This document shows, piece by piece, positions 3,761 to 54,677 of a stretch of DNA of 61,401 nucleotides. A program made the translations under genes and the position numbers. The DNA is from a virus (lineage: Duplodnaviria > Caudoviricetes). A model generated the notes under the pieces. That model searched no databases. It was not told the origin of the DNA and saw nothing but the letters and a program-made list of their open reading frames with translations. Position 1 is the stretch's first letter. Each line of letters begins with the position of its first letter. The DNA lies in the IMG/VR virus record IMGVR_UViG_3300049032_000024, positions 1 through 61,401 of that record; one strand, written 5' to 3'.

Positions 3761-4930
3761 ATGGATAATCTCAAAGTAATTGAAGAGGCCGCTAAGGTCT
3801 TTGGCGATGCCATCAAGGGTGACTTCCGCGCTCGTGGCCGTATCAAGCAGATTGTCTCTGAGGGCTATGTCCTCAACGAAGCAATCTCCACTTCGGACCT
3901 TGCTCGCACGTTCGCTTACGCGAACTCGTCTGAGCTGCTGAAGCAGTACGCTGGACTACCCACGACTTGGACCCAGTTCGCCAAGCGCGATGTGTTCGAG
4001 GACTTCAAGCCGAAGCGCAAGAAGGAATTCCTCTTCAACGGCGCTGTGGACCTCGAGGACAACGGCGGCTACGGCACTGCGGTTCACTCGCTGCCGAACG
4101 TCCCTGAACTCACCGAGTACCCAACGTTCCGTTGGTCCACTTCGGAGAAGGGTCTGTCCCTCCGTAAGAACGGTGCTCGCATCCCATTCTCGTGGGAAGA
4201 CGTTATCAACGATGAGTGGGGCTTCATCGCCTCGCTGCCGGGTGAAATGGCTCGCCTCGCCAAGACCACGGAAGAGACTGCAGCCCTTGAGGTTCTGGTC
4301 ACTGCTGGCGGTGTCAACGAAACCACGTTCTCTGCTGACAACGGCAACGCGATGGGCACCACCGGCACTGCCGGTACTCGCTACAAGCTGAGCCTGAACG
4401 CGCTCGAGTTCGCCAAGCGTGAAGTCCGCGCCCGTCAGGTCAACGGCAACTACGTCACGGTGCAGAAGTTCGCACTGATCGTTCCTACCAACCTGCAGAC
4501 CACTGCAGAGCGGATTCTGAACATTGGTCAGATTGAAGTCACCGAAGGTGACCTCAAGTTCCAGACCAGCACCAGCAACTCTGATGTGGTTCTCGTGGTC
4601 AATGACTACCTGACTCAGATCAACAAGTCTGCAAACGCTGCTACCACTTGGTTCCTCGTACCGCTCGGCGGTAACGATGGTGTCCGCGATTCCATCGTGG
4701 TCAACTTCCTGCGGAACCACGAAGCCCCTGAGTTCCGTCAGTCCGGCAACACCGGCCTGTACCTCGGCGGTGGCGCTGTTCCTTCTCTGGAAGGTTCGCT
4801 GCTCAACGATGACATTGAGTACCGCGTGCGCCACGTTGTGGCTGGTGGGTTCTGGTTCGGTGCGGCTATGTACGCATCGACTGGTGAATCCAACGCTGCT
4901 GCTCCAGACTACATGTCTGTCCCAGTCTAA
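3761..4930 (+). CDS. Major capsid protein (HK97 fold, Mu gpT-like)
   Basis: 389 aa; FSWEDVINDE and DDIEYRVRHV motifs; high-expression codon bias; synteny. Confidence 0.9.
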   Translation: MDNLKVIEEAAKVFGDAIKGDFRARGRIKQIVSEGYVLNEAISTSDLARTFAYANSSELLKQYAGLPTTWTQFAKRDVFEDFKPKRKKEFLFNGAVDLEDNGGYGTAVHSLPNVPELTEYPTFRWSTSEKGLSLRKNGARIPFSWEDVINDEWGFIASLPGEMARLAKTTEETAALEVLVTAGGVNETTFSADNGNAMGTTGTAGTRYKLSLNALEFAKREVRARQVNGNYVTVQKFALIVPTNLQTTAERILNIGQIEVTEGDLKFQTSTSNSDVVLVVNDYLTQINKSANAATTWFLVPLGGNDGVRDSIVVNFLRNHEAPEFRQSGNTGLYLGGGAVPSLEGSLLNDDIEYRVRHVVAGGFWFGAAMYASTGESNAAAPDYMSVPV

Positions 4931-37606: not shown

Positions 37607-38884
37607 TCACTTCTCATCTGCTTCAACCGCTACTCCGGGTGCCTGATCCGTGTAGACCAGATCGTAGAGCATCGAGTAAAGCTGACGCTGACCGCCGAAG
37701 CCAGCGCTCGTGGCCATCCAAGGGTTGTTCTTGCGCTTCTCCCAGTCAACGGCACCGAGCTTGCTGACGTACTCCGCAACCGAGTCCCAGAAGTCCGCGT
37801 CATTCTCGGTCTTGTCCAGCGATGTGAGCAGGATATCCGAACCGAGCAGCGAGACTGCCGCGACACCAACCACGTCCTTGAGCCGGTACTTGACCTGCTC
37901 TTCAACCGTCTCGTGCTCAGCGTTCTCAACGAACCGTGGCTGGTCCGTCCAAGCTGGAGCACATGCCTTGGCAACCAGAGCCCAGAAACGCTTTGCCACG
38001 TTCTCAGGCTTGTAGCCGCGCTGCTCGAGCCGGTTGATGACCTTGACCGGAAGCAGGTCACCGACTGACCGACGCAGACCCTCGAAGCTGACGGGCTCCA
38101 CAGCCTTTGGCCTGCCGGTCATGTTGACCAGACCGTTCCACACCGAGTCACCGTCTTCCGCCAGCTCGAAGCTGATCTTCCGAATGGTTTGAGCGTGGGA
38201 CTCTTCACCGGCCTCAGTGTGGACCTTCGTTGCCTCAATGAGAGCCTTGGGCAGCTTGCGCTGGTTGGTGTTGACCTCATCGAAGAAGCTGGCCTCTTCA
38301 GCGTAGTTCAGACCGTAGTACAGTGTGATCGGCACCACACAGTTGAACTCTTCATCGTTCTTCCAGCCGTAGTACAGACCTCCCATGCGGTGTTGACCGT
38401 CAACAATGGAGAAGACTGACTTGCCGAACTCCTGATGTATCTTGCTGATGTTACCAGCATTGAAGAGAGTGTTGAAACGGTTACGGTCCTTGGTGTTGTA
38501 GACCCGGACAGAAATGATGAGTGCCGGAATCTTGAAGCGGTTGTCATCCTTGGCGTAGTACCTTGCGATGCCGGGGAAGCGCTCTTCCATCGGTTCCCGC
38601 TGGTAGCCGTGGTTGCGGGGGCTGGAAGACTGGGGATCGTGTGTGCTGTACGTGCTGATGAACGCCAGCATCTTCAGCTTCTCAGGAGTCATGCCAGCGA
38701 TGGCGACCTTCCCCGGAACCAGTGTGGCCATGATTTCCATCTTGCCCTCTTTGGTAGCTACCTGAGTGGTAGGGGCGGAAGCTGGCTTCACGATGGGGAT
38801 AGCCACGGTGGGGGTCTTGGTGTCCACCTTGTTGGCCTGAGCGCGAGCGGAGCGACGGGTGCGGGGAGTGGTTGCAGTTGCCAT
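37607..38884 (-). CDS. DGQHR-domain (DndB/ParB-like) protein
   Basis: GYQR, IVDGQHR and FDEVNTNQRKL motifs. Confidence 0.85.
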   Translation of the reverse strand: MATATTPRTRRSARAQANKVDTKTPTVAIPIVKPASAPTTQVATKEGKMEIMATLVPGKVAIAGMTPEKLKMLAFISTYSTHDPQSSSPRNHGYQREPMEERFPGIARYYAKDDNRFKIPALIISVRVYNTKDRNRFNTLFNAGNISKIHQEFGKSVFSIVDGQHRMGGLYYGWKNDEEFNCVVPITLYYGLNYAEEASFFDEVNTNQRKLPKALIEATKVHTEAGEESHAQTIRKISFELAEDGDSVWNGLVNMTGRPKAVEPVSFEGLRRSVGDLLPVKVINRLEQRGYKPENVAKRFWALVAKACAPAWTDQPRFVENAEHETVEEQVKYRLKDVVGVAAVSLLGSDILLTSLDKTENDADFWDSVAEYVSKLGAVDWEKRKNNPWMATSAGFGGQRQLYSMLYDLVYTDQAPGVAVEADEK

Positions 38885-39052
38885 TTTGTGTTCCTCTTTC
38901 GGTAGTTGGTAGCTTCTTGCTACTGGTACTAACTTACTTTCAACCACTAGCACATGCAACACTTGTTCTACAACTCCGTGTACTCTAATTCCGTGATGTG
39001 GACTACCTGCTTCGTACTTGTTTGACGGGTTTGTAAAGTCTATGATCTATCC

Positions 39053-41787: not shown

Positions 41788-43214
41788 TATGCTGCTTCTC
41801 CATCTTCGTCACCGTAACCCATGTCCAGCATTTGTTGACTGTTCCTGAGCTTACCGATTTGCTTTACTTCAACTGTGTCCTTGGCCAGAATCATGTAGCG
41901 CTGCACGCTCCGTGTCTGACCCTGCCTGCTGAGCCTACCTGCTCCCTGTGTGTTTATCAAGGGGCTCCAGCTCACGTTCATCCAGATTTCGTGGCAGGCA
42001 ACTAGCTGTAGACCATCCGTACCTTCTGCTACTGCCTGCAGCGTACACACCAGAATGTCGAACTCCTTACCGAAGTTCTCCATCTTCCAGTCGCGCTCTT
42101 CCTTGCTCATACCACCGACGAACTGGCGAGCGCGGTACCCTGCAGCCTGAAGCTGCTTGGTCATAATCGTGGTGAAGATACGGGAGTCCGTGAAGATCAC
42201 CACTGGTTCAGGGTGCTCAGCGTGAAGGTCACTCAGCAGCTCGAGCACAACCTCTATCTTGGTGGACTTGGCGTCTTCCTCGAACCAGACCACATCGCCC
42301 CATGCGTCCATCCACAGGCCAGTCTCTTTGTCCTTCTTCTTTACCCAGTCCTGCCGGACGGAAGGGACAGCAAGGCAAATCTGCCTTAGACGCATGTTCA
42401 GGACAGCGGGAATGTCAATGGCGAGAGGGTTGTTGTTCAGCCATGTGATGGCTTCCTCTTCCAGCTCTTTGTAGTGCTTCCGCTGTACCTGTGAGATTTC
42501 CACTTCAATCTCATGGATTGTGGGCTTGTCCTTGTAGACGGATGGCATCTTGTGTGCTGCAGGCAGCTCTTTCCAGAGCTTTCCCGGCACTCGCTCTGCC
42601 GTGACCTTCTTACCTTCACCAAACTCTGAATCCTTGAACGGATCATGCTCAGTGTGGAAATACTTGGTGACCCATGACCAGAAGCTACGGTCCACCTGTT
42701 TAGGCCACAGCCAGCGTCCCAGTGCCCAGAGCCCCATCATGTGGTTGCCTGCCGGTGTCGCTGACATGGCCAGCTTGTACGTTGCCTTGGCAGTCTTCAA
42801 CATGGCGTGCATCCGAGAGTCACGGTTGGTTGCTACGTGGCACTCATCGAAGATCACAAAGTCCAGCTTGACCTTGCGCCATGCTACGGTGCGGAAGAAC
42901 TCACGCCCTACAAAGTACCAACCGGGCTTGTTGCTGTGCAGGTCTTCCCAATGGCGGCGGTTGGCCACGCGCTTGTTGTGACAGTAGCGCAATTCGATTG
43001 CGCCTTCCGACTGCCGTTGTACTGTCTTGCGCCAGCCTGATTCAGTGCCGATAGGTGCGATGATAAGCACACGCTTGGCTTCTGCTTCAATGGCTGACTG
43101 GACGCCTACCAGCGTCTTGCCTGCACCTGTCGGTGCCTTGAGCAACACTTCCTTGTGCTCGAGGATGAAGTCTATGGCCTTGCGTTGGTCATCGTGCGGT
43201 GTGAATGGTTTCAT
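41787..43214 (-). CDS. SF2 DNA helicase
   Basis: PTGAGKT, DECH, SATP, EGTDGLQ and QGAGRLSRQGQ motifs. Confidence 0.9.
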   Translation of the reverse strand: MKPFTPHDDQRKAIDFILEHKEVLLKAPTGAGKTLVGVQSAIEAEAKRVLIIAPIGTESGWRKTVQRQSEGAIELRYCHNKRVANRRHWEDLHSNKPGWYFVGREFFRTVAWRKVKLDFVIFDECHVATNRDSRMHAMLKTAKATYKLAMSATPAGNHMMGLWALGRWLWPKQVDRSFWSWVTKYFHTEHDPFKDSEFGEGKKVTAERVPGKLWKELPAAHKMPSVYKDKPTIHEIEVEISQVQRKHYKELEEEAITWLNNNPLAIDIPAVLNMRLRQICLAVPSVRQDWVKKKDKETGLWMDAWGDVVWFEEDAKSTKIEVVLELLSDLHAEHPEPVVIFTDSRIFTTIMTKQLQAAGYRARQFVGGMSKEERDWKMENFGKEFDILVCTLQAVAEGTDGLQLVACHEIWMNVSWSPLINTQGAGRLSRQGQTRSVQRYMILAKDTVEVKQIGKLRNSQQMLDMGYGDEDGEAA

Positions 43215-43675
43215 ACTCTGTCCAGATCATTGTGCGTGAAGAGTTCATTGCGTTTGACTATAACGGCGGCTTCAGCAGCTTCTACAGTTGTGTGAGCGCC
43301 TGCACTGAATTTCCTACCATCGTGACAGACTACCGCACGCCACTTTCCCAGAACCTTGTCCCAGTAAACACCTCGTGCCCCGCTTATGTTGTTCTTACGG
43401 GACTTCTTTAGGTTCTCACTGTTCTGTTTTTGGGTAGTCTCGCGTAAGTGGTCAGGACGTACACATGCCTCTGTCTGACACGTATGGTCTAGCCCTACCT
43501 TGCGGTGTAGTTTCTTCCCTGTGTGCGCTTCATAAGACAGTCGGTGCGCTAGTGCTGAACCTTTCCGGGTACTGTCCCAGAACAATCCATATCCTTGCTT
43601 ATGTAGTCCTGCGGTCCAAAGCCAACAAGTATCAGTCTTGTTGACTTTGGACCAAAAGCGTGGGGGAAGCTCCAA
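43211..43675 (-). CDS. HNH endonuclease with AP2 domain
   Basis: CWLW, DHTC..CVRPDHL and SGARGVYW...WRA motifs. Confidence 0.9.
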   Translation of the reverse strand: MELPPRFWSKVNKTDTCWLWTAGLHKQGYGLFWDSTRKGSALAHRLSYEAHTGKKLHRKVGLDHTCQTEACVRPDHLRETTQKQNSENLKKSRKNNISGARGVYWDKVLGKWRAVVCHDGRKFSAGAHTTVEAAEAAVIVKRNELFTHNDLDRV

Positions 43676-45212: not shown

Positions 45213-45737
45213 CTACACCCTTGGGTATGTCTGCAACTCACACTGCGGCGAGCAGCCTGTCTTGCTGTGACTGTGCTTACAAAGAGCCCTCTTCTTGCAG
45301 GCTAAGCAGGTCCGTACAGTCTGCCCTGTTGTCTGTACTCTTGTTTCGTATATACCAACGATGGCGAGGTCATGCCCATGCTTGCAGTGAGTAGCTGTTG
45401 CCACGTTGGTACGCCCCTTGTGCTCAGCCTTGGGCTTGCGCGTAGGCTTTCCACCCTTGACCCAGCCGTTGCGGATACCTGCTCTACGCATGTTCTCAGA
45501 CTTGGTTACAGGCTCAAGATGGTCAGGATTCACACAGAGACGTACATGGCACAGATGGTCAAGCTGCAAGCCTTTGGCAATCGGCCCAATCAGTAGCTCC
45601 CACACAGCCCTGTGCGCTGAATGTGTCCTACCTCTGAAGGTCACCTGTCCATAGCCGCAGTTGTTCATGCCTCCGGTCCACAACCAGCAAAAACCTGTAG
45701 GCTCGACACGCTCAAAAATCCTTGTAAAATCATCCAC
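45213..45737 (-). CDS. HNH endonuclease
   Basis: CWLWTG, LDHLCHVRLCVNPDHLE and THCKHGH motifs. Confidence 0.9.
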   Translation of the reverse strand: MDDFTRIFERVEPTGFCWLWTGGMNNCGYGQVTFRGRTHSAHRAVWELLIGPIAKGLQLDHLCHVRLCVNPDHLEPVTKSENMRRAGIRNGWVKGGKPTRKPKAEHKGRTNVATATHCKHGHDLAIVGIYETRVQTTGQTVRTCLACKKRALCKHSHSKTGCSPQCELQTYPRV

Positions 45738-45912
45738 CTAAAAATCCTACCATCCTCCAAAAACTCCCCAAGGCCCCCAGAAAATTTTGCTGCGAGGCTT
45801 CTTTCATCCTCCAGTGAGAATGGTGACGGGCGCGCTGGTCTTGCGTGGTCCTACCAAAACCTCTCCGAGTTAGTCCAATCGGTGGATTAATGAACTGAGG
45901 GCTGACTCTCAC

Positions 45913-46170
45913 TTCTACACGCTGTAGAACTTAGGGTACCCTAACCGAACAATCGTTCTGTTGAAGCTTCAAACAAATTCCCTCGACTGCATATATACAG
46001 CGACACGACTGCATATATGCAGTACCCGGACACGCTACGTTGAAACTTCAACAGTCAATGTCAACAGTCAACGCTAGCGCGTAACAGTTCGACGGAGTAG
46101 CGTCACAGAAAGTTAGGCGTACCTAAAAATTGTTTGCAGGCTGACAATAACCGAACAACTATTCAGTAAA
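45913..46170. promoter_or_regulatory. Dense array of short operator-like palindromes
   Basis: TTCTACA-N3-TGTAGAA; TTAGG-N4-CCTAA x2; GAAC-N4-GTTC; TTGAA-N2-TTCAA x2; ACTGCATATATGCAGT. Confidence 0.65.
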
Positions 46171-46220
46171 TGGGGAAGTATGCGAGAAAACAGAAAGTTT
46201 ACCGTGATGCACCGTTTGTC

Positions 46221-46643
46221 TGTGGATAACCTGTGGAGAACGTCGTTCATTTAGGGGTACAAGTATTTGGTTGTTTGAGCACTTGAAGCGCTTAGAACGG
46301 CATACAGGGCGTTTAGGTCACGATTTATAACAGTTCCCTCGAGCTCTTGACGTAATGCCGATGTGCTGTTATTCGCGTATGCGCGCGTTGGTAATAAGGC
46401 ACGATTCTAGGTTCGGTCACGGTTAGATAACGGTTAGGTGAACAGAACAGAGATTTAGATGCATATGCATCCAACCTGTGGATAACTCTGCAAAAGTGTG
46501 GATAACTTATGCCAAATTGTGGATAACTACCGATGCCGGCGTGGATAACTTTGCTCATTCTGTGGATAACTTTGGCGATTCTGTGGAAAAGTAGCCCTTT
46601 TCTGTGGATAAACCTGTGGAAAATGGCAATATTTGGTGGATAG
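46221..46643 (-). repeat. DnaA-box array (TTATCCACA on the minus strand)
   Basis: Perfect TGTGGATAA at 46221, 46477, 46497, 46518, 46561, 46603; one mismatch at 46232, 46540, 46582, 46615; two at 46635. Confidence 0.9.
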
Positions 46644-46878
46644 GGTTACGCTAAAGACGTGCTAGTCGCGGCGATGGGGTACGGGGGAACCTGTACTTTC
46701 ATCTAGGGGTTAGGCACTTGCTCCCCCGGTAACACCGGGGGAATTGATAGCTAAATAGTGAACGCGGGTAGGGGTATCCGCTCTAGTGCATTCCTAGAGC
46801 GGGTACCCGGTAGAACTAGAGACTTTCATCTAGCAAGGGAAAGAGCCCTTGCTAGTTGTTAGCAACTAGGGAGAGAAC

Positions 46879-47037
46879 ATGAAAACACAACAGGAAATTA
46901 CGGCACGTATTGCTTACTTGAAGCACCAAAAAGAGCAGGCAATAAAAGAAGAGTTGTGGACAGCTACAGCGATATTTCAAGCGCAGATAGAAACGCTTGA
47001 ATGGGTACAGGAAGCAACTACGTTTCATACGTTCTAA
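46879..47037 (+). CDS. Small hypothetical early protein (52 aa)
   Basis: RBS GGGAGAG; MKTQQEITARIAYL... Confidence 0.6.
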   Translation: MKTQQEITARIAYLKHQKEQAIKEELWTATAIFQAQIETLEWVQEATTFHTF

Positions 47038-47089
47038 ATGCGTTTAGCCATTACCGGATACCCGGTAATGGCTATGCACAGTTAGTGCA
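47035..47089 (+). repeat. Structured intergenic RNA repeat, copy 1
   Basis: 13-bp stem plus TGCAC-AGTTA-GTGCA stem. Confidence 0.8.
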
Positions 47090-47110
47090 GTACAGAAAAG
47101 GGGAAGCAAG

Positions 47111-47518
47111 ATGCAAAAAGATGAATGCTCACGGATTGAATGGCTTTCACAGTTTGATGACTACGCCCTAGCTTCAATGGCCAATGGTGGCTACAGGCTT
47201 GAAGACGATTCACTCGAAACAGCTACGGCAGAAGAGCTTGAAGCAGTAAGGCTCTACAGGCTTGAAAGCTTCAATAAATGGGCAGCAAATAATCCGTTTG
47301 TGGAGCTGGAAACAATGGTTCAGGGCGCAACGGTTGAAGGGCTTGTTTACCGGGTATACGGGGGAACATCCCATAGCGAACGTGTAGACGTAGCACTGGA
47401 ATACTCCAGCTATCTCGAGTCTGAAGGTTATGTAATTAGTTGTGATCGCTATGAGGCAACAAACAAAAAAGATGGTGAAGGAAACACTTACACAGAGTTT
47501 CGTTTCACCTGCAGCTAG
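47111..47518 (+). CDS. Hypothetical early protein
   Basis: RBS present; A-rich codon usage. Confidence 0.65.
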   Translation: MQKDECSRIEWLSQFDDYALASMANGGYRLEDDSLETATAEELEAVRLYRLESFNKWAANNPFVELETMVQGATVEGLVYRVYGGTSHSERVDVALEYSSYLESEGYVISCDRYEATNKKDGEGNTYTEFRFTCS

Positions 47519-47554
47519 TACCCGGTAACACCAAACGAAAAGGAAGACAGAACA

Positions 47555-47923
47555 ATGGGACAGACAAAAGCGGAAAAGCTGGCGGAAAAAGCTGCAGCTA
47601 GGGAAGCACTCGTTTCACGTTGGAAGGATGAAATTCTCAAACCTTCCACTCTTCTGGAATTCCGTACGGAGTACGGAAAAGGTGAGACTGATTATGTGGA
47701 AGCTCACTGTTACTACCTTGGAAAAGATGGGAAGCTGCAGCACTTTCCGCTCACTGTGCTTATTGCACAGGCTTGGGGAATGAAATTGAAGCGGACACAA
47801 AGTAAGACGCAAATAGCTGAAGGTGGTGGTGGCCTGTCTAAGAGCTACAAAATTGCAATGATGCTCTTTCAAGTGCTCGACATAGAGCACCGTGAAACAG
47901 ATATCAATTTCACCTATCGCTAA
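47555..47923 (+). CDS. Hypothetical early protein
   Basis: RBS AAAGGAAG. Confidence 0.65.
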   Translation: MGQTKAEKLAEKAAAREALVSRWKDEILKPSTLLEFRTEYGKGETDYVEAHCYYLGKDGKLQHFPLTVLIAQAWGMKLKRTQSKTQIAEGGGGLSKSYKIAMMLFQVLDIEHRETDINFTYR

Positions 47924-47978
47924 AGGCATTTAGTCATTACCCGGATAGTCCGGGTAGTGGCTATGTGCAGTTAGCACA
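47921..47978 (+). repeat. Structured intergenic RNA repeat, copy 2
   Basis: Same two stems with G-U pairs and compensatory changes. Confidence 0.8.
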
Positions 47979-47998
47979 GAACAACAGGAAGGAAAGTC

Positions 47999-48604
47999 AT
48001 GTTTTCGTATGTACCTAATACACATTGGGCGAAAGATGGATCAGAGAGCACTAAGCAGGTAGCGAGCATTGAAGCGCTGTACGACCTGTGTAAGCAAGGG
48101 GAAGTAGCAAGGGTAATAATCCCTATGACGTGGTACGGATACGGCGCGACAGTAATCAGTCTGAGCAATCACAGAAGCATCAAAAAGCACTACGCAGAAA
48201 ACAAATTCCGAGACTACGGAACAGAACTTTCAATGTCTGCCTATCAGTTCAGGAAGTACCCGGAATTCCGCGACATGATTAGGGAACTGCAGGAAGAGTA
48301 CCCGGTATTCAATGAACAGGATTACAGCGAGCTTGAAAGTGAAACTCTGTTGGAATTCCTAGTAGATGAAATTAGCTATGTGCTAATTGAAGATGAAAGC
48401 GGATTGTGGCCTGAAACGTTGTACGAAACAAAGGAAGTAGTAAGACTGATTCTTGAAGGGTATTCAGAAAAGGACTGGAGTACCCGGATCGAATGGTGGG
48501 AATACTGCAGGCTGGACAATGACGGAGCTACGCCCTACAGCGATAAAACAGAAATTGAAGAGCTCGCCAAAATGATTACAGCTAAGCGAGTAGCCACTAA
48601 GTGA
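47999..48604 (+). CDS. Hypothetical acidic early protein
   Basis: YPVFNEQDYSELE motif; RBS present. Confidence 0.7.
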   Translation: MFSYVPNTHWAKDGSESTKQVASIEALYDLCKQGEVARVIIPMTWYGYGATVISLSNHRSIKKHYAENKFRDYGTELSMSAYQFRKYPEFRDMIRELQEEYPVFNEQDYSELESETLLEFLVDEISYVLIEDESGLWPETLYETKEVVRLILEGYSEKDWSTRIEWWEYCRLDNDGATPYSDKTEIEELAKMITAKRVATK

Positions 48605-48954
48605 AATTCCCTATCTTCCCTAGCCTGCAGCAAATACTAGGGCTCTTCCTTTTGATGCTTTTCATCTTCCTACCCGGCTGGCTTAGTCCTCCCTACTAAA
48701 CAAAGGACAAAAAGAATGTTTGCTAGAGCAACACCGTTCAAGTGTGAAGGACATGTCTATGACTCCATAAGCACTGTGTTTGAAGACAGAACGTTTACAG
48801 CTAGGCACTGTAGCTACTGCAGCGAGCACAAAGCAGTTACAGCTATCCGAAAATTCTTCAAGCTGTGAATGGCCTGCAGTTTGCTGCGCTAGTAATCGCT
48901 GCAGCTTGGATATTCCGATACGCGATACACAACAAACTAGAGATTGGAAGCAAG

Positions 48955-49416
48955 ATGGCTAAGCCCTTGAATGAAATTATGGAATTCGATCACATTGTGG
49001 AAGTCCACAAAGATGGGAGCATTACCGATACGGATATGTGCGTAGGGGATAGTGACGCATATTTTGAATTGTCTGTGAATTCTGAAGGTGAGGATGACTT
49101 TTACATGCCTCCGGGATGGGAATTGCTTAGGGGATTCACTGGGCAGTATTCCTACAATGGTCCAGTAATGCATCCCTCAGAATTCATTGGGGGCGGGTTA
49201 GAGCGACACATTAGAGAGACTCCGGGTTACTACGTAGCACTAGTAGTGGAGGGTACAGATAAACATGAGTGGCAGGTATCGCGGTTTACAGGTACTAGGA
49301 CATGTCAGCGTTGCGGACTATTGCCGCAGGATAGCGACGATATGGAAAGTGAATGCAATAGCGATAATCCTGCAGGGTGGGCTGTAGCCTATAAACCGTC
49401 CGCTGAAACTGACTAA
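48955..49416 (+). CDS. Hypothetical early protein
   Basis: GFTGQYSYNGPVMHPSEFIGG motif. Confidence 0.7.
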   Translation: MAKPLNEIMEFDHIVEVHKDGSITDTDMCVGDSDAYFELSVNSEGEDDFYMPPGWELLRGFTGQYSYNGPVMHPSEFIGGGLERHIRETPGYYVALVVEGTDKHEWQVSRFTGTRTCQRCGLLPQDSDDMESECNSDNPAGWAVAYKPSAETD

Positions 49417-49471
49417 ATGCGTTTAGTCATTACTAGGTACTTCCTAGTGGTGGCTATGTGCAATTAGCACA
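49414..49471 (+). repeat. Structured intergenic RNA repeat, copy 3
   Basis: Same two stems with G-U pairs and compensatory changes. Confidence 0.8.
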
Positions 49472-49491
49472 ACAAAGAAAAGGGAGTAATC

Positions 49492-49878
49492 ATGCAGCTT
49501 GGAAAGTTCAGCAACGATAGGGATTCCGCACTCCACTACCTGTGCACTAGTGAATGGAGCAATGAATCTTTTGGTGACGTAGAAAGTCCTACAGGCTATG
49601 TATGGAGGATTAGCAACACGTGGGAGGAGGTCAAGCCCACAAACACGGAATTCAATTCTGTAATTACAGAATGGCTTAGGGCAGAAGTAAGGGAAAATTG
49701 GTTTCAGCTTGAAGCGCTGACAGAAGAGCTTAGGAAGTCTCTAGTAGGGCACTTCCTGCTACAGGAAGACAGCAACGGACTAGTACACGTTAGGGAGTAC
49801 GCAACGGAAAAAGAGCTCTTGAAGGACTTTCAAGCGCTCGAGACTGAACACTTCAATTGGGATTCACAGGGAGAGTAA
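49492..49878 (+). CDS. Hypothetical early protein
   Basis: RBS AAGGGAG. Confidence 0.7.
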   Translation: MQLGKFSNDRDSALHYLCTSEWSNESFGDVESPTGYVWRISNTWEEVKPTNTEFNSVITEWLRAEVRENWFQLEALTEELRKSLVGHFLLQEDSNGLVHVREYATEKELLKDFQALETEHFNWDSQGE

Positions 49879-49883
49879 GCACA

Positions 49884-50486
49884 ATGGAAAAAGAGACAGT
49901 AAAAACTGAAGGCGACTACCGGGCAGTTATTGAACGGGAAGAATACAGCTACGCTCCGGACGGCGACTATCAAGCTGCAGTAATCCGACTGGACTACAGC
50001 GGATACTATGACGCCGACGCTAAAAACTCTGCAGCTAATGAGTTTGAAGACGCCGCTAAACATTTCATGTCCTACTACGGAATGAATAAGGGAATTGACG
50101 TCTTCAAGCGCTATTTGACTCTCTTTCACGGAACACAGGACATTAGGGAATTCCACTACAGCTACTCTCCGGATAGTGCTAGGTATCTTGCTTTTGATTC
50201 TGCAGACATGCGTGAAGAATGGGGAAGCGCTGAAGACGCTACGGACGCCGCTGCAGGTACGGCTGAAGAATGGCAGGCGTACATAGATGGGGATACCTAC
50301 AGCATTGCTGTAGAGCGTCGGATCACCGCTAGCACAGTCTCTTACTTCCAAGGGGAAGAGCTGGGCACAGAAGAGACTGAAGATTGGGAAGAGCTGGCAG
50401 ATACAGTCTGTGGAGGTTTTTATGGTGAAAAATGGGCAAGGGAAGCTGCAGAAGAGCTCTTGAGCCACTACAGCGAAAAGGGCTAG
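49884..50486 (+). CDS. Hypothetical highly acidic early protein
   Basis: WQAYIDGDTY...DTVCGGFYG motif; Asp/Glu-rich. Confidence 0.7.
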   Translation: MEKETVKTEGDYRAVIEREEYSYAPDGDYQAAVIRLDYSGYYDADAKNSAANEFEDAAKHFMSYYGMNKGIDVFKRYLTLFHGTQDIREFHYSYSPDSARYLAFDSADMREEWGSAEDATDAAAGTAEEWQAYIDGDTYSIAVERRITASTVSYFQGEELGTEETEDWEELADTVCGGFYGEKWAREAAEELLSHYSEKG

Positions 50487-50620
50487 AGCATGACTGAACT
50501 AGAGCTACTGGAGCGCTTGACAGTTATCCGCAATGCCTGCAGCGATCCTGTTACGCGGGTAGAGCTTGCAAGGCTGCAGCGTGACCGTTGGGGAGTACAG
50601 GAAAAGGGAGAAAACAACTA

Positions 50621-50887
50621 ATGGCTAACAACGACTACCGGCGCGCGGAACTTTCCAACGTCGATGCAACGGGCGAGTACCCGGCAAAACTGAAGATAGC
50701 TAGTGACGATGGAGATACTAAGTGGCTGGACATTACAGCCACGGAGTTTGAACAGATAAAAGCTGTGTTGCTGGACTACCGGAACGACTGTGCTCATGAG
50801 CAGACACTAGATGACCTCTCAGTCTCTTTTGAGTCTGGAGCAGAGCAGAAGTGCTCTAAGTGTGGGGAGAGCGTCACACGTTGGTAA
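50621..50887 (+). CDS. Hypothetical early protein
   Basis: TKWLDI motif; C-terminal CSKC. Confidence 0.6.
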   Translation: MANNDYRRAELSNVDATGEYPAKLKIASDDGDTKWLDITATEFEQIKAVLLDYRNDCAHEQTLDDLSVSFESGAEQKCSKCGESVTRW

Positions 50888-50913
50888 GAGACAGGAAGTA
50901 GGACTAGACGTAG

Positions 50914-50975
50914 GAAGAGCCCTAGCGGCACCTGAAGGACTGTAAAAGGTCCGGACGGTACTGCTAGGGCTCTTC
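50914..50975 (+). terminator. Long hairpin closing the early operon
   Basis: GAAGAGCCCTAGCGG...CTGCTAGGGCTCTTC. Confidence 0.6.
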
Positions 50976-51332
50976 TGTGTTTGGGGCTCTTACAGGGGCG
51001 TACAGGGCGTAGGAAGAGCTGCAGGGGACAGCCATAGGGGAAGGGCTCTTACAGGCACTCAGAAGGGCAGCTATGGCGTATTCCGGGTAGGGAGAGCTAC
51101 AGGGGAGAAGTTCTACATTTGGGCAGTGTTTGTAACGCATTACATACAGTGTGGTTTATGTAGGTTAGGAAAAGCTTTGTTTCTGTGCGGGATAAATGGG
51201 TTATTGGTGAGATAGGGAAAAGGGAAAGGTTAGGGATAGGGGAGATATATGGAATGCATTACAAAAGCACCAACGCCGAAACGAGCAAAAGCCGCTAAAA
51301 CGCCGTGGTCTAGACCAGTGCTTTTCTGTCTC

Positions 51333-51420
51333 TCTATCTCTATTTATTATTTTTTTTATATTTATATATGTATTGAATTACTGACAGAAAGAAGAAAGGG
51401 AAGAGATAGGCGACTTGTAA
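51333..51420. repeat. AT-rich non-coding element, copy B
   Basis: Homologous to 20993-21080. Confidence 0.7.
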
Positions 51421-51862
51421 CCATGTTTCGCACTCGCGCGTGTCGTGTAACGCATTTCATCCAAATGCACAGGGCTCGAGCACGCTGCAGCGCTAGCCAT
51501 ACGTGCTACAGGGGACAGGACAGGGGATAGGCATGACTAGCGCTGTATGCCTACGTAACGGCCTAACAGACACACAGATAGGCATTCACCCACAGAGAGG
51601 GGTTCAAGGGCTCACAGAGGCACACAGAGGCTTAGAGCGCAGAGAAGGGCTTAGAGCTCGAGAAGCACAGAAGAGCGCACAAAGCAAGGGGAAAGTAAGT
51701 ACCTGAGAGAACAGGCTTTTGTACTGCCCTTTGTACTGTGTATGTAGATGCATATGCATGTATATGGTTCATGCGTATGCATGTATAAGTAATGACTCGA
51801 GTGAGAATCTATGCTGCATAGTCATACAGAGGTGTGGGAGCTTATGCAAGGCTGCAAAAACA

Positions 51863-51878
51863 TGTTTCACGTGAAACT
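51863..51878. promoter_or_regulatory. parS site (chromosomal ParB box)
   Basis: TGTTTCACGTGAAACT: 15/16 match to the universal parS consensus with a perfect 14-bp core. Confidence 0.85.
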
Positions 51879-51988
51879 GTGAAAAAGTACCGACTAAATC
51901 AGTTTCATAATGAGAACCATTCGCATTTTGGGACTCCTTTTGAGAAACAAATATCGCCAACCCGTTTTTTCCCTATAGGCTTTGGGGC

Positions 51989-52177
51989 ATGGATAAAGAA
52001 CTCGTTGACCTCATCAAGGCTGAGATAGCCCACAACATCACTCCTGTCATAGGCTGGCTCCGTAGGGACGCACAGACTGGCAGGGTGGACGACGATCAAG
52101 ACCGCCTGAATGAATACAGGAGGCGCTTACAGAAGGCTGCAGAGGACGTAGCTGTTGCTGTCGAAAATCGCAAGTGA
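51989..52177 (+). CDS. Hypothetical protein (leaderless)
   Basis: TAGGCT 7 nt before ATG; no RBS. Confidence 0.6.
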   Translation: MDKELVDLIKAEIAHNITPVIGWLRRDAQTGRVDDDQDRLNEYRRRLQKAAEDVAVAVENRK

Positions 52178-52778: not shown

Positions 52779-53119
52779 CCATCGCTGACGCACTCCCCGT
52801 TGTAGGCATTGTGCTGCTCGGTGCTGCACTATTCCTGTTCTTCTACTTCGCTTTCAAGGCGTACACCGTCCCACCCAAGGCTGAGGCACGTCCGGCGTGG
52901 GACGGTAAGCACACGCTACGGGGCATCAAACACGTAGAACACTTCGGCAACCGGCCTGAAGACTACTCCACCGGCTGGCTCTGGGAATGTGCTTGTGGGA
53001 TCGGGAACAAGTACCGCATAGGCTTTGATCTTCCCTACACAGAGGGAGAAGCCATCGCTGAGTACAAAGAGCACCGTGACTTCTACAAGGGTATGCAGGA
53101 AGACGGCTCGAGCCTGTGA
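52775..53119 (+). CDS. Membrane-anchored hypothetical protein
   Basis: N-terminal TM segment; WECACG motif. Confidence 0.6.
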   Translation: MTIADALPVVGIVLLGAALFLFFYFAFKAYTVPPKAEARPAWDGKHTLRGIKHVEHFGNRPEDYSTGWLWECACGIGNKYRIGFDLPYTEGEAIAEYKEHRDFYKGMQEDGSSL

Positions 53120-53349
53120 GCGGTACCAAGAGCAGTGGCAGGAAGCTCTCACCAGAGCGCAAGCAGTTGTTGGACAACGCTGTGGCTGATGGCTGGCCTA
53201 TCCGCCAAATCATCAGCACATACGGCATTGGTACGTCCACAATCAAGAAGCACTACCCTGACTACAGAGGTATGACGGATTCCCATGAGTCCGGCAAAAT
53301 GAGCTGGCAGAACCAGCATGTGCTGCGGGATTTGAAGTTGACAGCCTAA
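53116..53349 (+). CDS. Small HTH protein
   Basis: DGWPIRQIISTYGIGTSTIKKHYP. Confidence 0.65.
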   Translation: MSGTKSSGRKLSPERKQLLDNAVADGWPIRQIISTYGIGTSTIKKHYPDYRGMTDSHESGKMSWQNQHVLRDLKLTA

Positions 53350-54378: not shown

Positions 54379-54452
54379 GTGGGTGTAGCTCAATTGGTTA
54401 GAGTGCCGGTTTTGGGAACCGGAAGTTGCAGGTTCAAGTCCTGTCTCCCGCA
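54379..54452 (+). tRNA. tRNA-Pro(UGG)
   Basis: Cloverleaf; CCGGT-TTTGGGA-ACCGG anticodon arm; GGTTCAAGTCC T arm; one T-T mismatch in the acceptor stem. Confidence 0.85.
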
Positions 54453-54535
54453 CGAAGTCGATATGGACGTGACGACTTCTAATAAAACTCGATCCGCGTC
54501 ATTTGTTGGGGTTTGACGGTAACTAACCCCTTCGG

Positions 54536-54608
54536 TGGGAGTTAGCTCAGATGGCAGAGCAGCGCACTGTTAATGCGCGGGTCACAGGTTCGAGCCCTGT
54601 ACTCCCAG
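54536..54608 (+). tRNA. tRNA-Asn(GUU)
   Basis: TGGGAGT/ACTCCCA acceptor stem; GCGCA-CTGTTAA-TGCGC anticodon arm; GGTTCGAGCCC T arm. Confidence 0.92.
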
Positions 54609-54677
54609 CAAGAGCAGCATACGGGCGGAACCCCAAGACCGAGGCCGCTGTGATGGCTCTTGGTGGCGACCTAATAC

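What the first reader, a model, noticed from the sequence alone, without database searches (positions are those of the whole stretch)
45913..46471. Mosaic of host-operator-like palindromes: candidate DNA decoy for host regulators (left block)
Seen: gene-free DNA packed with different short dyads, most present twice. TTCTACA-CGC-TGTAGAA (45913); TTAGG-N4-CCTAA (45931, 46113); CCGAACAATCGTTC (45945) and CCGAACAACTATTC (46151); TTGAA-N2-TTCAA (45961, 46040); CGACTGCATATAT (45984, 46006; the second within a perfect 16-bp palindrome); TCAACAGTCAA (46048, 46061); GTCACG..ATAAC (about 46317, 46406); GATGCATATGCATC (46458). Established: TTAGG-N4-CCTAA resembles the DtxR/IdeR core and GAAC-N4-GTTC the actinobacterial LexA box; the others look like TetR/MarR/GntR-type dyads. 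Inference: a multi-operator decoy that titrates host repressors as phage DNA replicates, or recruits host proteins during DNA entry.
Basis: partly seen in the sequence, partly recalled or inferred. Interest (0 to 1): 0.85.

Follow-up and report, generated by a model that had tools for sequence, protein, structure and literature searches.

The report
Phage control region copying host operators
The gene-free stretch of this soil phage really is packed with short palindromes, and several of them are exact copies of switch sequences that its likely host bacteria use in front of their own genes, so the phage probably listens to, or possibly soaks up, host regulators.

Summary
All the motifs sit at the stated coordinates. 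Dyads with arms of 6 or more number 6, against 0.86 in shuffles (0 of 500 reach it).

The block is the left third of the only large gene-free gap (45738-46878) of a complete 61.4-kb Arthrobacter-type phage. It lies between divergent promoter candidates and next to a 21-bp-phased array of host-type DnaA boxes.

- TTCTACA-N3-TGTAGAA: 39 sites against 2 control sites in 41 genomes of the likely host family, upstream of cydA, hemQ, hmp, hemA and BlaI-family regulator genes.
- AGATGCATATGCATC: 16 against 0.
- The TCAACAGTCAA pair matches a conserved host transporter/sugar-enzyme intergenic operator.
- TTAGG-N4-CCTAA (the "DtxR" site): 71 against 74, which is chance.
- The "LexA" site, CTGCATATATRCAG and TAACCGAACAA are not host-like.

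Three related phages share the DnaA array and the right part of the gap, but each has its own dyad set on the left. Two of those dyads are also host operators.

My best reading (about 0.45) is a cis-acting control and origin region gated by host regulators, DnaA and phage proteins. A titrating decoy is not excluded (about 0.15). Binding is untested.

The parts
45738..46878 (.). Whole gene-free gap between the leftward replication operon (first gene: HNH endonuclease, 45213-45737, minus strand) and the rightward operon (first ORF at 46879)
   Evidence: ORF list; PHROG and Pfam; no tblastx match to G001 inside it; cumulative GC-skew minimum at about 46000
45744..45771 (-). Candidate leftward promoter TTGGGG-N16-(TG)-TAGGAT, ending 6 nt before the GTG at 45737 (leaderless-type layout). 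Inferred only.
   Evidence: My scoring script; the surrounding 45738-45790 is kept in G001, L223 and L013
45913..45929 (.). TTCTACA-CGC-TGTAGAA: an exact copy of a host-family operator (the BlaI-family / cydA-hemQ-hmp-hemA regulon)
   Evidence: 21 of 21 nt (CTCACTTCTACACGCTGTAGA) kept in L223 within otherwise unalignable DNA; absent from G001 and from the L224 and Amigo-like loci
45931..45944 (.). TTAGGGTACCCTAA, first of two TTAGG-N4-CCTAA dyads (second at 46113-46126). Kept as TAGG-N4-CCTA in L223 (x1) and as TTAGG-N3/4-CCTAA in G001 (x2). Not host-like.
   Evidence: host family 71 against 74 control
45942..45961 (+). TAACCGAACAATCGTTCTGT, direct repeat with 46148-46167 (80% identity). It contains the 'LexA-like' GAAC-N4-GTTC. 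Not host-like and not conserved.
   Evidence: contigs of run X6 skip 46141/46142 to 46178/46188, which removes the second copy
45958..46054 (.). Nested interrupted palindrome. Outer arms are CTGTTGAAGCTTCAA and TTGAAACTTCAACAG. Inside is the pair CGACTGCATATATACAG (45984) and CGACTGCATATATGCAGT (46006), spaced 22 bp. Specific to this phage.
   Evidence: I2, I3, D9, D11; folding z-scores -5.3 and -4.9; 0 host hits for CTGCATATATRCAG; variant changes at 46019 and 46045 make copy 2 equal to copy 1
46048..46073 (+). TCAACAGTCAA-TG-TCAACAGTCAACGC. 17-19 nt match a conserved host operator cluster between an MFS transporter gene and a xylose-isomerase-like TIM-barrel gene.
   Evidence: (20 against 9)
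46113..46126 (.). TTAGGCGTACCTAA, second TTAGG-N4-CCTAA dyad. Aligns with TTAGGCATACCTAA of G001.
46216..46240 (+). TTGTCTGTGGATAACCTGTGGAGAA: a tandem pair of DnaA-box-type 9-mers, 22 of 22 nt identical in G001. L223 and Amigo carry an inverted pair (TTCCAC-NN-TGTGGAA) in this part of the gap.
   Evidence: 41 of the 94 BLAST rows from host-family genomes fall here
46284..46330 (.). Conserved island ..TTAGAACGGCATACAGGGCGTTTAGGTCACGATTTA..
   Evidence: Alignments A1 and A3; best local match to Amigo, though within the shuffle range
46347..46375 (+). Candidate rightward promoter TTGACG-N17-(TGT)TATTCG. Counterparts: L223 TTGACA-N18-TATTTG, G001 TAGACA-N17-TATTTC, L224 TGGACT-N17-TATTCG, Amigo TTGACA-N18-TATATG. 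Inferred; the last base of the -10 is not T.
   Evidence: missed by the strict consensus scan
46409..46435 (.).
46457..46471 (.). AGATGCATATGCATC: host-type operator (host form AGATGCAWWTGCATCT). The three relatives carry a different host-type dyad, GTTACT-N4-AGTAAC, at this slot.
   Evidence: YceI, His_Phos_1 and luciferase-like monooxygenase genes; slot swap; GTTACT-N4-AGTAAC has 22 sites against 7 control, 7 of them exact, in 5 host-family genomes
46477..46642 (+). Array of 9-10 co-oriented TGTGGATAA-type boxes, mostly 21 bp apart. It lies just outside the finding's right edge. Box positions are conserved in L223, L224 and G001 while the spacers vary.
   Evidence: a likely host-genus genome uses the same 9-mer (36 against 3 control), with boxes beside dnaA
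46643..46878 (+). Leader of the rightward operon: conserved AGTGAACGCGGGTAG and three hairpins. The 46772-46808 hairpin is replaced in G001 by a different sequence that also pairs.

Best explanation
The block is the left, fast-evolving part of the phage's single large control region. That region lies between a leftward and a rightward promoter candidate and next to a phased array of host-type DnaA boxes, so it is probably also the replication start.

The block mixes two kinds of site. (a) True copies of operators that the likely host family (Micrococcaceae) uses in at least three of its own regulons. One is a BlaI-family regulon for respiration, heme and NO genes. One is a transporter/sugar-enzyme pair. 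One is a YceI/monooxygenase group. (b) Paired dyads found only in this phage lineage, which most likely bind phage-encoded proteins.

I read it as working in cis. Host repressors and DnaA sit on the incoming DNA and make early rightward transcription and the start of replication depend on the host's physiological state. The phage-specific pairs would set the early-to-middle switch or load the phage primase-helicase.

Shown: the motifs, their excess over chance, their identity to host operators, and the pattern of conservation among relatives. Inferred: the promoters, any binding, and the direction of the effect.
For: - Position. The block is in the only large gap, at the divergence of two operons and at the GC-skew minimum. 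It lies between promoter candidates that are conserved in relatives.
- Host identity. The endolysin's best matches are Arthrobacter phages (19 of 21 records). A gene 67% identical over 302 residues is in Pseudarthrobacter sp. BRE9.
- Host operators. The counts are 39 against 2, 16 against 0, and an orthologous intergenic cluster. The host sites lie 4-100 nt upstream of genes, including 5 BlaI-family regulator genes.
- Selection. Of the dyad and its flank, 21 of 21 nt are kept in L223 while the neighbouring DNA does not align. A close variant's change at 45923 gives CGTAGAA, a form also seen at second sites in hosts.
- Slot conservation. Directly left of the DnaA array every one of the 4 phages has a host-type dyad, of two different types.
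- Phage-specific pairs. L223 has its own 23-nt near-palindrome twice, and G001 has other pairs.
- DnaA. The phage's 9-mer is the one the host genus uses (36 against 3), with boxes beside dnaA.
Against: - No host-type operator overlaps a recognisable promoter. The dyad at 45913 is about 140 bp from the leftward -35 and about 420 bp from the rightward one.
- The strict sigma-70 scan found no promoter inside the gap. My rightward candidate has G or C where the -10 should end in T.
- No DNA-binding domain was found in the 14 small right-arm proteins scanned, apart from one sub-threshold HTH_23 match. So the partners for the phage-specific dyads are unidentified.
- No AT-rich unwinding element stands out in the block.
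- GC skew is confounded with gene orientation.
- The true host species is unknown.
- The host-family test covered 41 genomes for most motifs.
- The BLAST pile-up for the TCAACAGTCAA pair (9 rows) is no larger than the largest pile-ups of a coding control stretch (9-10 rows).
- G001 carries a different host operator in its left block, so no single host input is essential.
Confidence: 0.45

Rival explanations
1. DNA decoy. As phage DNA is copied to hundreds of molecules, its operators and DnaA boxes soak up scarce host repressors and DnaA. That would switch on host cytochrome bd, heme synthesis, flavohemoglobin and a sugar-uptake pair, and block host re-initiation, without the phage encoding any protein for it.
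For: - The host-type operators are real and come from unrelated regulons.
- None overlaps a recognisable phage promoter.
- The phage copy of the transporter/TIM-barrel operator keeps the embedded TTGAC hexamers but lacks the -10 that follows 18 nt later in the host (my reading of the sequences printed).
- The DnaA array has 9-10 boxes, which resembles a titration locus.
- Related phages carry different operator sets, as expected if each is tuned to its own host.
Against: - Each left-block operator type is present once (the TCAACAGTCAA unit twice), which makes a weak sponge.
- The BlaI-family regulator appears autoregulated in the host, with sites before its own gene. That would buffer titration.
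- The operator slot next to the DnaA array is positionally conserved across 4 phages. A sponge does not need that.
- About half of the motif types are not host-like at all.
- Searches returned no phage example of such a decoy.
Confidence: 0.15
2. A purely phage-internal origin and operator region. All the dyads serve phage proteins or form hairpins and cruciforms for the phage replisome, and the matches to host operators have no function.
For: - The block folds far better than shuffles (z = -5.3, -4.9 and -3.2).
- There is a nested 97-bp interrupted palindrome.
- Each relative has its own duplicated near-palindrome.
- The phage encodes its own polymerase, primase-helicase and SNF2-type helicase.
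- The motifs occur nowhere else in the genome.
Against: - An exact 14-specified-base match to an operator that is enriched 39 against 2 in the host family is expected about 1e-4 times in 61 kb by composition (my arithmetic). It is also kept in L223.
- Two further phage dyads, and two dyads of relatives, are also host-type.
- The variant change at 46019 lowers pairing between the two inner copies while making them identical. That fits sequence recognition better than structure.
Confidence: 0.12
3. Relics with no function: short patches picked up from host DNA, or chance palindromes, in a spacer that is free to drift.
For: - The left block is the least conserved part of the gap.
- Contigs of run X6 skip 37-48 bp of it.
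- G001's left part has only one dyad with arms >=6.
Against: - Dyad and repeat density is far above shuffles.
- There is no extended host homology, only operator-sized matches of at most 40 nt.
- 21 of 21 nt are kept in L223.
- In a close variant, 4 of the 8 changes listed for 45913-46100 fall in one 12-nt spacer, and 2 others make one repeat copy identical to the other.
Confidence: 0.1
4. A T5-like signal for DNA entry. The gap would hold incoming DNA at the membrane through DnaA and other host proteins, separating a first-entering segment (the rightward small genes) from the rest.
For: - The T5 untranslated 'Repeat Region 3' is also about 1.2 kb. It is full of palindromes, direct and inverted repeats and DnaA boxes, and includes nine copies of one repeat (bioRxiv 10.1101/866236, section 3.3 read).
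- The distant relatives in Cluster AQ have long terminal repeats (PMC5513430, passages seen).
- In Amigo a similar gap lies 5.5 kb from the right end.
Against: - The T5 regions are described as highly conserved among T5-like phages, whereas this left block is hypervariable.
- The physical ends of this genome are unknown. The record is 'linear, no end repeats'.
- The DnaA model for T5 is itself a proposal in a preprint.
- No A1/A2-like genes were looked for.
Confidence: 0.05

Closest known systems
Host-regulator operators inside phage control regions (LexA boxes in CTX-phi and coliphage 186, the DtxR operator at the corynephage tox promoter, DnaA boxes near lambda pR). These examples are recalled, not checked in any call.
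   Same: A phage carries an exact copy of a host operator, so that a host regulator acts on phage DNA.
   Different: Those cases have one regulator at one known promoter, mostly in temperate phages. Here a phage with no integrase seen among the genes I scanned (the whole genome was not scanned) carries operators of at least three unrelated host regulons plus DnaA boxes in one gap. None overlaps a recognisable promoter, and the set differs between related phages.
Phage T5 first-step-transfer 'Repeat Region 3' / injection stop region (Davison, bioRxiv 10.1101/866236; abstract and section 3.3 read, passages by search)
   Same: An untranslated stretch of about 1.2 kb in a lytic siphovirus, built of nested palindromes, direct and inverted repeats and consensus DnaA boxes (TTATCCACA).
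   Different: T5's region is reported as highly conserved across 25 T5-like phages, whereas this left block is hypervariable. T5's boxes come in pairs 3 bp apart, whereas here there is a co-oriented 21-bp-phased array. There is no sequence relation, the host phylum differs, and the ends here are unknown.
Bacterial oriC and the E. coli datA DnaA-titration locus (recalled)
   Same: Clusters of consensus DnaA boxes flanked by sites for other DNA-binding proteins. The 9-mer equals the one found beside dnaA in a likely host-genus genome.
   Different: No clear AT-rich unwinding element. The phage has its own replisome. The neighbouring sites are operators of metabolic regulons rather than the nucleoid proteins known at oriC.
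BlaI/MecI/CopY-family operators (the TACA..TGTA 'cop box' type; recalled)
   Same: The dyad TTCTACA-N3-TGTAGAA has the TACA/TGTA core. In host genomes it lies in front of Penicillinase_R-family regulator genes, one of them followed by an M48-type peptidase gene.
   Different: The spacer is 3 nt rather than the 2 nt I recall for the cop box. The regulon (cydA, hemQ, hmp, hemA) is not one I found described. An Rrf2-family gene also lies next to one hmp site, so the binding protein is not settled.

Membership tests
Operator of the Micrococcaceae TTCTACA-N3-TGTAGAA regulon (BlaI-family candidate) | Exact 7+7 dyad with a 3-nt spacer | tested here: met
   45913-45929 matches exactly. The same 17-mer with the CGC/GCG spacer occurs in 5 host-family genomes: G003, G008 (twice), G025, G036 and G038.
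Operator of the Micrococcaceae TTCTACA-N3-TGTAGAA regulon (BlaI-family candidate) | Motif enriched in host genomes over a composition-matched control, and placed upstream of genes | tested here: met
   39 sites in 24 of 41 genomes against 2 control sites. All 17 further loci fetched have a gene start within about 100 nt of a site. Neighbouring genes are cydA, hemQ, hmp, hemA and regulator genes.
Operator of the Micrococcaceae TTCTACA-N3-TGTAGAA regulon (BlaI-family candidate) | Bound by the regulator on phage DNA | not testable with these tools
   Needs EMSA or ChIP.
DtxR/IdeR iron box | 19-bp palindrome TTAGGTTAG-N-CTAACCTAA (consensus recalled), enriched in front of iron genes | tested here: not met
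   The phage sites are 14-bp TTAGG-N4-CCTAA. That pattern is at chance in the host family, 71 against 74 control. The full 19-mer was not searched.
Actinobacterial LexA (SOS) box | TCGAAC-N4-GTTCGA (consensus recalled) | tested here: not met
   45945 reads CCGAAC-AATC-GTTCTG, which has the core only. The copy at 46151 has ATTC in place of GTTC. GAAC-N4-GTTC occurs 3 times in the genome, about 1 expected by my arithmetic. The site is not kept in G001, L223 or L224. As a positive control, CGAAC-N4-GTTCG has 11 sites against 4 control in G002.
DnaA-box cluster / oriC-like origin | Several consensus 9-mers that match the host's own box | tested here: met
   6 perfect TGTGGATAA, all in the gap. G002 has 36 sites against 3 control, with three beside dnaA.
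DnaA-box cluster / oriC-like origin | Adjacent AT-rich unwinding element, and mapped replication start | tested here: inconclusive
   No outstanding low-stability stretch in the block. The weakest 30-mers in the gap are in the 99.5th-percentile range of the genome but not beyond it. Start sites cannot be tested here.
T5-type injection stop region | Large untranslated mosaic of palindromes, repeats and DnaA boxes | tested here: met
   compared with section 3.3 of 10.1101/866236.
T5-type injection stop region | Strict conservation among relatives, and position at the edge of the first-entering segment | tested here: not met
   The left block is not alignable between relatives. The genome ends are unknown, so the position part could not be tested.
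Transcription-factor decoy / titration locus | Many sites for one factor, no regulated promoter next to them, and a measurable titration effect | tested here: inconclusive
   Many sites only for DnaA. The left-block operators are single or double. No promoter overlap was seen. The effect cannot be tested here.

The most novel reading that the evidence does not exclude
The gap is a protein-free host-takeover device. Amplified phage DNA would act as a sponge for a BlaI-family repressor, a sugar-catabolic repressor, a third unknown regulator and DnaA. That would derepress host cytochrome bd, heme synthesis, NO detoxification and nutrient uptake, and stall host chromosome initiation. Related phages would swap operator cassettes to match their own hosts.
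Probability: 0.15. Interest if true: 0.9.

Novelty: new variant of a known kind. Interest (0 to 1): 0.62.

Why it matters
Phages are known to borrow single host operators, LexA being the classic case. Here an uncultivated soil phage, apparently lytic, holds copies of operators from several unrelated host regulons in one 1.1-kb gap. Beside them are phage-specific dyads and a phased array of host-type DnaA boxes, and its relatives carry different operator sets at the same places.

If the sites work in cis, this is a compact way for a phage of often-starved soil bacteria to make its development depend on host respiration and nutrition. If they act as a sponge, it would be a new kind of host takeover that needs no gene.

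Both readings can be tested directly in Arthrobacter or Pseudarthrobacter laboratory strains.

The work also exposed a host regulon that my two literature searches did not find described. It consists of TTCTACA-N3-TGTAGAA sites before cydA, hemQ, hmp, hemA and a BlaI-family regulator gene, which in the one locus examined (L293) is followed by an M48-type peptidase gene.

Tried and rejected
- Rfam at gathering thresholds found only two tRNAs, nothing in the gap.
- The strict sigma-70 and terminator scan found no promoter inside the gap, and one terminator-like hairpin that is simply the 46458 palindrome.
- blastn of the gap against named phages gave only three Microviridae matches to the DnaA-box array. 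megablast of 25000-46000 gave nothing.
- Single-protein searches of IMG/VR with the 236-aa protein and the helicase found no close relative. Metagenome contigs L013-L015 are relatives, but they end before the left block.
- An exact-pattern scan for the first two dyads together found nothing in IMG/VR. The 15-mer AGTGAACGCGGGTAG found 9 contigs, of which only G001 is a relative.
- Local alignment of the gap with Amigo's gap scored within the shuffle range (28, against a shuffle maximum of 29). I therefore claim likeness of layout only, plus the elements seen by eye.
- No listed holder of this DNA is on record as RNA, so expression could not be examined.
- Contigs laid are short and patchy. Their joints at the DnaA-box repeats may be alignment effects, and I did not use them.
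- No AT-rich unwinding element was found.
- Pfam found no DNA-binding domain in the 14 right-arm small proteins tried, apart from a sub-threshold HTH_23 match (E = 0.025) for 53116-53349.
- BLAST of the block against 121 host-family genomes was meant as an unbiased test. A coding control stretch (47100-47700) also gave 54 rows, with pile-ups of 9-10. So only the pile-ups at the 45913 dyad (18 of 94 rows) and at the DnaA pair (41 of 94) exceed the control. The pile-up at the TCAACAGTCAA pair (9 rows) does not, and that site rests on its host context instead.
- I first took G001's AATGAATG-N-CATTCATT for a Zur box. The neighbouring genes are TetR-family regulators, an amine oxidase and a permease, so I dropped that reading.
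- I considered NrdR boxes for the CTGCATATAT pair and rejected them on recalled consensus and spacing. This was not tested.
- In one search (301 genomes, up to 2 mismatches) I did not add up the columns. By eye the control column is of the same order as the match column.
- Supplementary files of the T5 preprint and of PMC5513430 (S8 Fig, Cluster AQ alignment) could not be seen and may bear on the comparison.
Full report
WHAT THE WINDOW IS. The window is a whole IMG/VR virus record of 61,401 bases, rated 100% complete. It encodes a tape-measure-sized ORF, a Pol I-type polymerase, a primase-helicase, an SNF2-type helicase, Sak4, an exonuclease, RNA ligases, a polynucleotide kinase and two HNH endonucleases. 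The nearest named phages are the Arthrobacter Cluster AQ phages such as Amigo (helicase 38% identical). The endolysin's matches are Arthrobacter phages in 19 of 21 records, and a 67%-identical gene lies in Pseudarthrobacter sp. BRE9 (family Micrococcaceae). Runs that hold the DNA are soil and rhizosphere metagenomes. The host is therefore probably an Arthrobacter-like actinobacterium. This is an inference.

All motifs are at the stated places. Their density is far above shuffles and above nearly all other windows of the genome. They are confined to this gap.

CONTEXT.
- The finding is the left part of a 1,141-bp gene-free gap (45738-46878). On its left is a leftward operon of replication genes, and on its right a rightward operon of small genes with lower G+C.
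- Just right of the finding is an array of TGTGGATAA boxes, mostly 21 bp apart. Two more boxes lie inside the finding at 46221 and 46232. All 6 perfect copies in the genome are in this gap.
- In the Pseudarthrobacter genome G002 the same 9-mer occurs 36 times, against 3 for the reversed control. Three of those sites flank dnaA, and there are further clusters on the same contig. The phage boxes are therefore of host type.

RELATIVES.
- A profile search with five helicases found three relatives with the homologous gap: L223 (61,875-bp record, helicase 68%), L224 (58%) and G001 (61,117 bp, 56%, syntenic by tblastx).
- The right two-thirds of the gap have conserved islands. These are the DnaA-box pair at 46216-46240; the island with AGGTCACGATTTA; a promoter-like TTGACG-N17-TGT-TATTCG with counterparts in all four phages and in Amigo; GGTCACGGTTAGATAAC; and the box array, with conserved phasing and variable spacers. 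There is also a leader with AGTGAACGCGGGTAG and hairpins, one of which is replaced by a different pairing sequence in G001.
- The left block (45913-46215) does not align, with two exceptions. CTCACTTCTACACGCTGTAGA is kept 21 of 21 in L223. The TAGG-N4-CCTA dyads are also kept (window x2, L223 x1, G001 x2).
- Each relative has its own pairs. L223 has a 23-nt near-palindrome twice, 37 bp apart. G001 has GCAGTACAAA twice, two adjacent TTAGG..CCTAA dyads, and AATGAATG-C-CATTCATT.
- Amigo has a gap of similar size and position, with a consensus DnaA box, about nine 10-11-bp tandem repeats and inverted TTCCAC..GTGGAA pairs.

TEST OF 'HOST-OPERATOR-LIKE'. Through the endolysin match I reached a Pseudarthrobacter genome (G002) and 41 genomes of its family. 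I counted each motif against the tool's own control, which is the same pattern read backwards. The column sums are my own additions.

Enriched:
- TTCTACA-N3-TGTAGAA: 39 sites in 24 genomes against 2. In G002: 3 exact and 3 one-mismatch sites against 1.
- GATGCATATGCATC at up to 1 mismatch: 16 in 12 genomes against 0.
- G001's AATGAATG-N-CATTCATT at up to 1 mismatch: 18 in 12 genomes against 0, 7 of them exact.
- The relatives' GTTACT-N4-AGTAAC in 5 genomes: 22 against 7, 7 of them exact.

Weak:
- TCAACAGTCAA: 20 against 9.
- L223's AAATGTC-N-GACATTT: 7 against 1.
- GTTGAA-N2-TTCAAC: 9 against 4, with no visible excess for the longer form in 301 genomes (columns not summed).

Not enriched:
- TTAGG-N4-CCTAA: 71 against 74.
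- CTGCATATATRCAG: 0 against 0.
- TAACCGAACAA: 17 against 27.

WHAT THE HOST SITES ARE.
- TTCTACA-N3-TGTAGAA lies in intergenic DNA 4-100 nt before gene starts.
- The genes it precedes are Penicillinase_R (BlaI/CopY-family) regulator genes in 5 loci, cytochrome bd subunit I (2 loci confirmed), chlorite-dismutase-like hemQ (3), flavohemoglobin (2), glutamyl-tRNA reductase, isocitrate lyase, succinyl-CoA synthetase and others.
- Several regulator/cydA intergenic regions carry two sites. One regulator gene is followed by an M48-type peptidase gene, and one hmp site has an Rrf2-family gene upstream.
- I conclude that this is a respiration/heme/NO regulon, probably under the autoregulated BlaI-family protein. 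I found no description of it (searches: listings only; passages of PMC7924339 read do not cover it).
- The second motif has the host form AGATGCAWWTGCATCT. It lies before YceI-like, histidine-phosphatase and luciferase-like monooxygenase genes, and in one genome 70 nt from a site of the first kind.
- The TCAACAGTCAA pair matches CAATGTCAACAGTCAAC. In 5 of 6 loci examined, that sequence and its inverted partner fill the divergent region between an MFS transporter gene and a xylose-isomerase-like TIM-barrel gene or, in one locus, a short-chain dehydrogenase gene.
- BLAST of the whole block against 121 family genomes gave only operator-sized matches of at most 40 nt. The block is therefore not captured host DNA in bulk. 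A coding control stretch shows that small pile-ups of such hits also arise by composition.

VARIATION IN CLOSE STRAINS (short contigs, so weak evidence).
- In run X6, 46019 G>A makes the second CGACTGCATATAT unit identical to the first and destroys the 'perfect 16-bp palindrome'.
- 46045 A>G turns TTGAAACTTCAA into the first copy's TTGAAGCTTCAA.
- Four changes fall in the 12-nt spacer 46024-46035.
- 45923 T>C gives a CGTAGAA half-site, which host second sites also show.
- Two contigs skip 37-48 bp that include the second CCGAACAA copy.
- A more distant contig in X4 keeps 45913-45972 (7 differences in 60) between unlike flanks.

READING.
- The block lies between a leftward promoter candidate next to the first leftward gene (45744-45771) and a conserved rightward candidate (46347-46375).
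- The host-type dyad at 46457 lies about 75-90 nt downstream of the rightward candidate and directly before the DnaA array.
- At that same slot the three relatives carry a different host-type dyad. A conserved slot filled by interchangeable host operators speaks for action in cis.
- I therefore favour a control and origin region that takes host regulators and DnaA as inputs, together with phage proteins that bind the lineage-specific pairs (0.45).
- The decoy reading stays open (0.15). The operators are real, they belong to unrelated regulons, and none overlaps a recognisable phage promoter. Against it, most are single copies.
- The other rivals are an internal-only origin or operator region (0.12), functionless relics (0.10) and a T5-like entry signal (0.05).
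- The T5 region (preprint 10.1101/866236: abstract, section 3.3 and search passages read) is the closest look-alike in anatomy. It is strictly conserved among its relatives, which this block is not.
- Cluster AQ phages have 1.5-kb terminal repeats (PMC5513430, passages). The ends of this genome are not known.

LIMITS.
- No binding, transcript or replication data exist.
- The host species is inferred.
- Most motif tests used 41 genomes.
- The promoters are inferred from sequence only.

VERDICT. I rate it a new variant of a known kind, with interest 0.62.

Noticed in passing
window 46477-46642 (also 46221-46240): Array of 9-10 co-oriented consensus DnaA boxes at mostly 21-bp spacing, with box positions conserved in three related phages. 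69 IMG/VR contigs hold three perfect boxes at exactly this phasing.
   Followed up: partly
host loci L293-L314 (genomes G002, G003, G008, G012, G013, G014, G025, G036, G038): A Micrococcaceae regulon marked by TTCTACA-N3-TGTAGAA before cydA, hemQ, hmp, hemA and BlaI-family regulator genes. In the one locus examined (L293) the regulator gene is followed by an M48-type peptidase gene. Two literature searches found no description of it.
   Followed up: partly
L223 about 4515-4560 (minus strand) and Amigo locus L002 8940-8990: An element of about 43 nt (TATAGGCATCAAAAG..TTCCAC-NN-TGTGGAAATTCGCGT) is nearly identical in L223 and Amigo, although their helicases are each only about 38-39% identical to the window's. 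Seen by eye and not scored.
   Followed up: no
window 46772-46808 and G001 (L083 about 800-840): A hairpin in the rightward leader is replaced in G001 by a different sequence that also pairs. It may be a structured leader RNA.
   Followed up: no
window 51340 and 20999: The two least stable (most AT-rich) 30-mers of the genome, about -25 kcal/mol against a genome mean of -42. Not examined.
   Followed up: no
window 51747: The only other near-copy (1 mismatch) of GATGCATATGCATC in the genome.
   Followed up: no
window 46001-52000: The rightward arm has clearly lower G+C (45-47%) than the rest (52-58%). It encodes small proteins, mostly without family matches. The genes just right of the gap differ between this phage and G001.
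   Followed up: partly
window 45213-45737 and 43211-43675: Two HNH endonuclease genes, one with an AP2 domain, flank the start of the leftward operon. The metagenome relative L013 has other genes there, which suggests mobile insertions.
   Followed up: no
window 37607-38962: A 451-aa protein with a DndB (DNA-sulfur-modification-associated) domain.
   Followed up: no
Microviridae records MG945717, MG945739, MG945529: Pig-feces microviruses match the DnaA-box array over 52 nt at 87-91% identity, so they seem to carry similar phased boxes.
   Followed up: no
window 54379-54609: tRNA-Pro(TGG) and tRNA-Asn(GTT) genes, as in the tRNA-bearing Cluster AQ phages.
   Followed up: no
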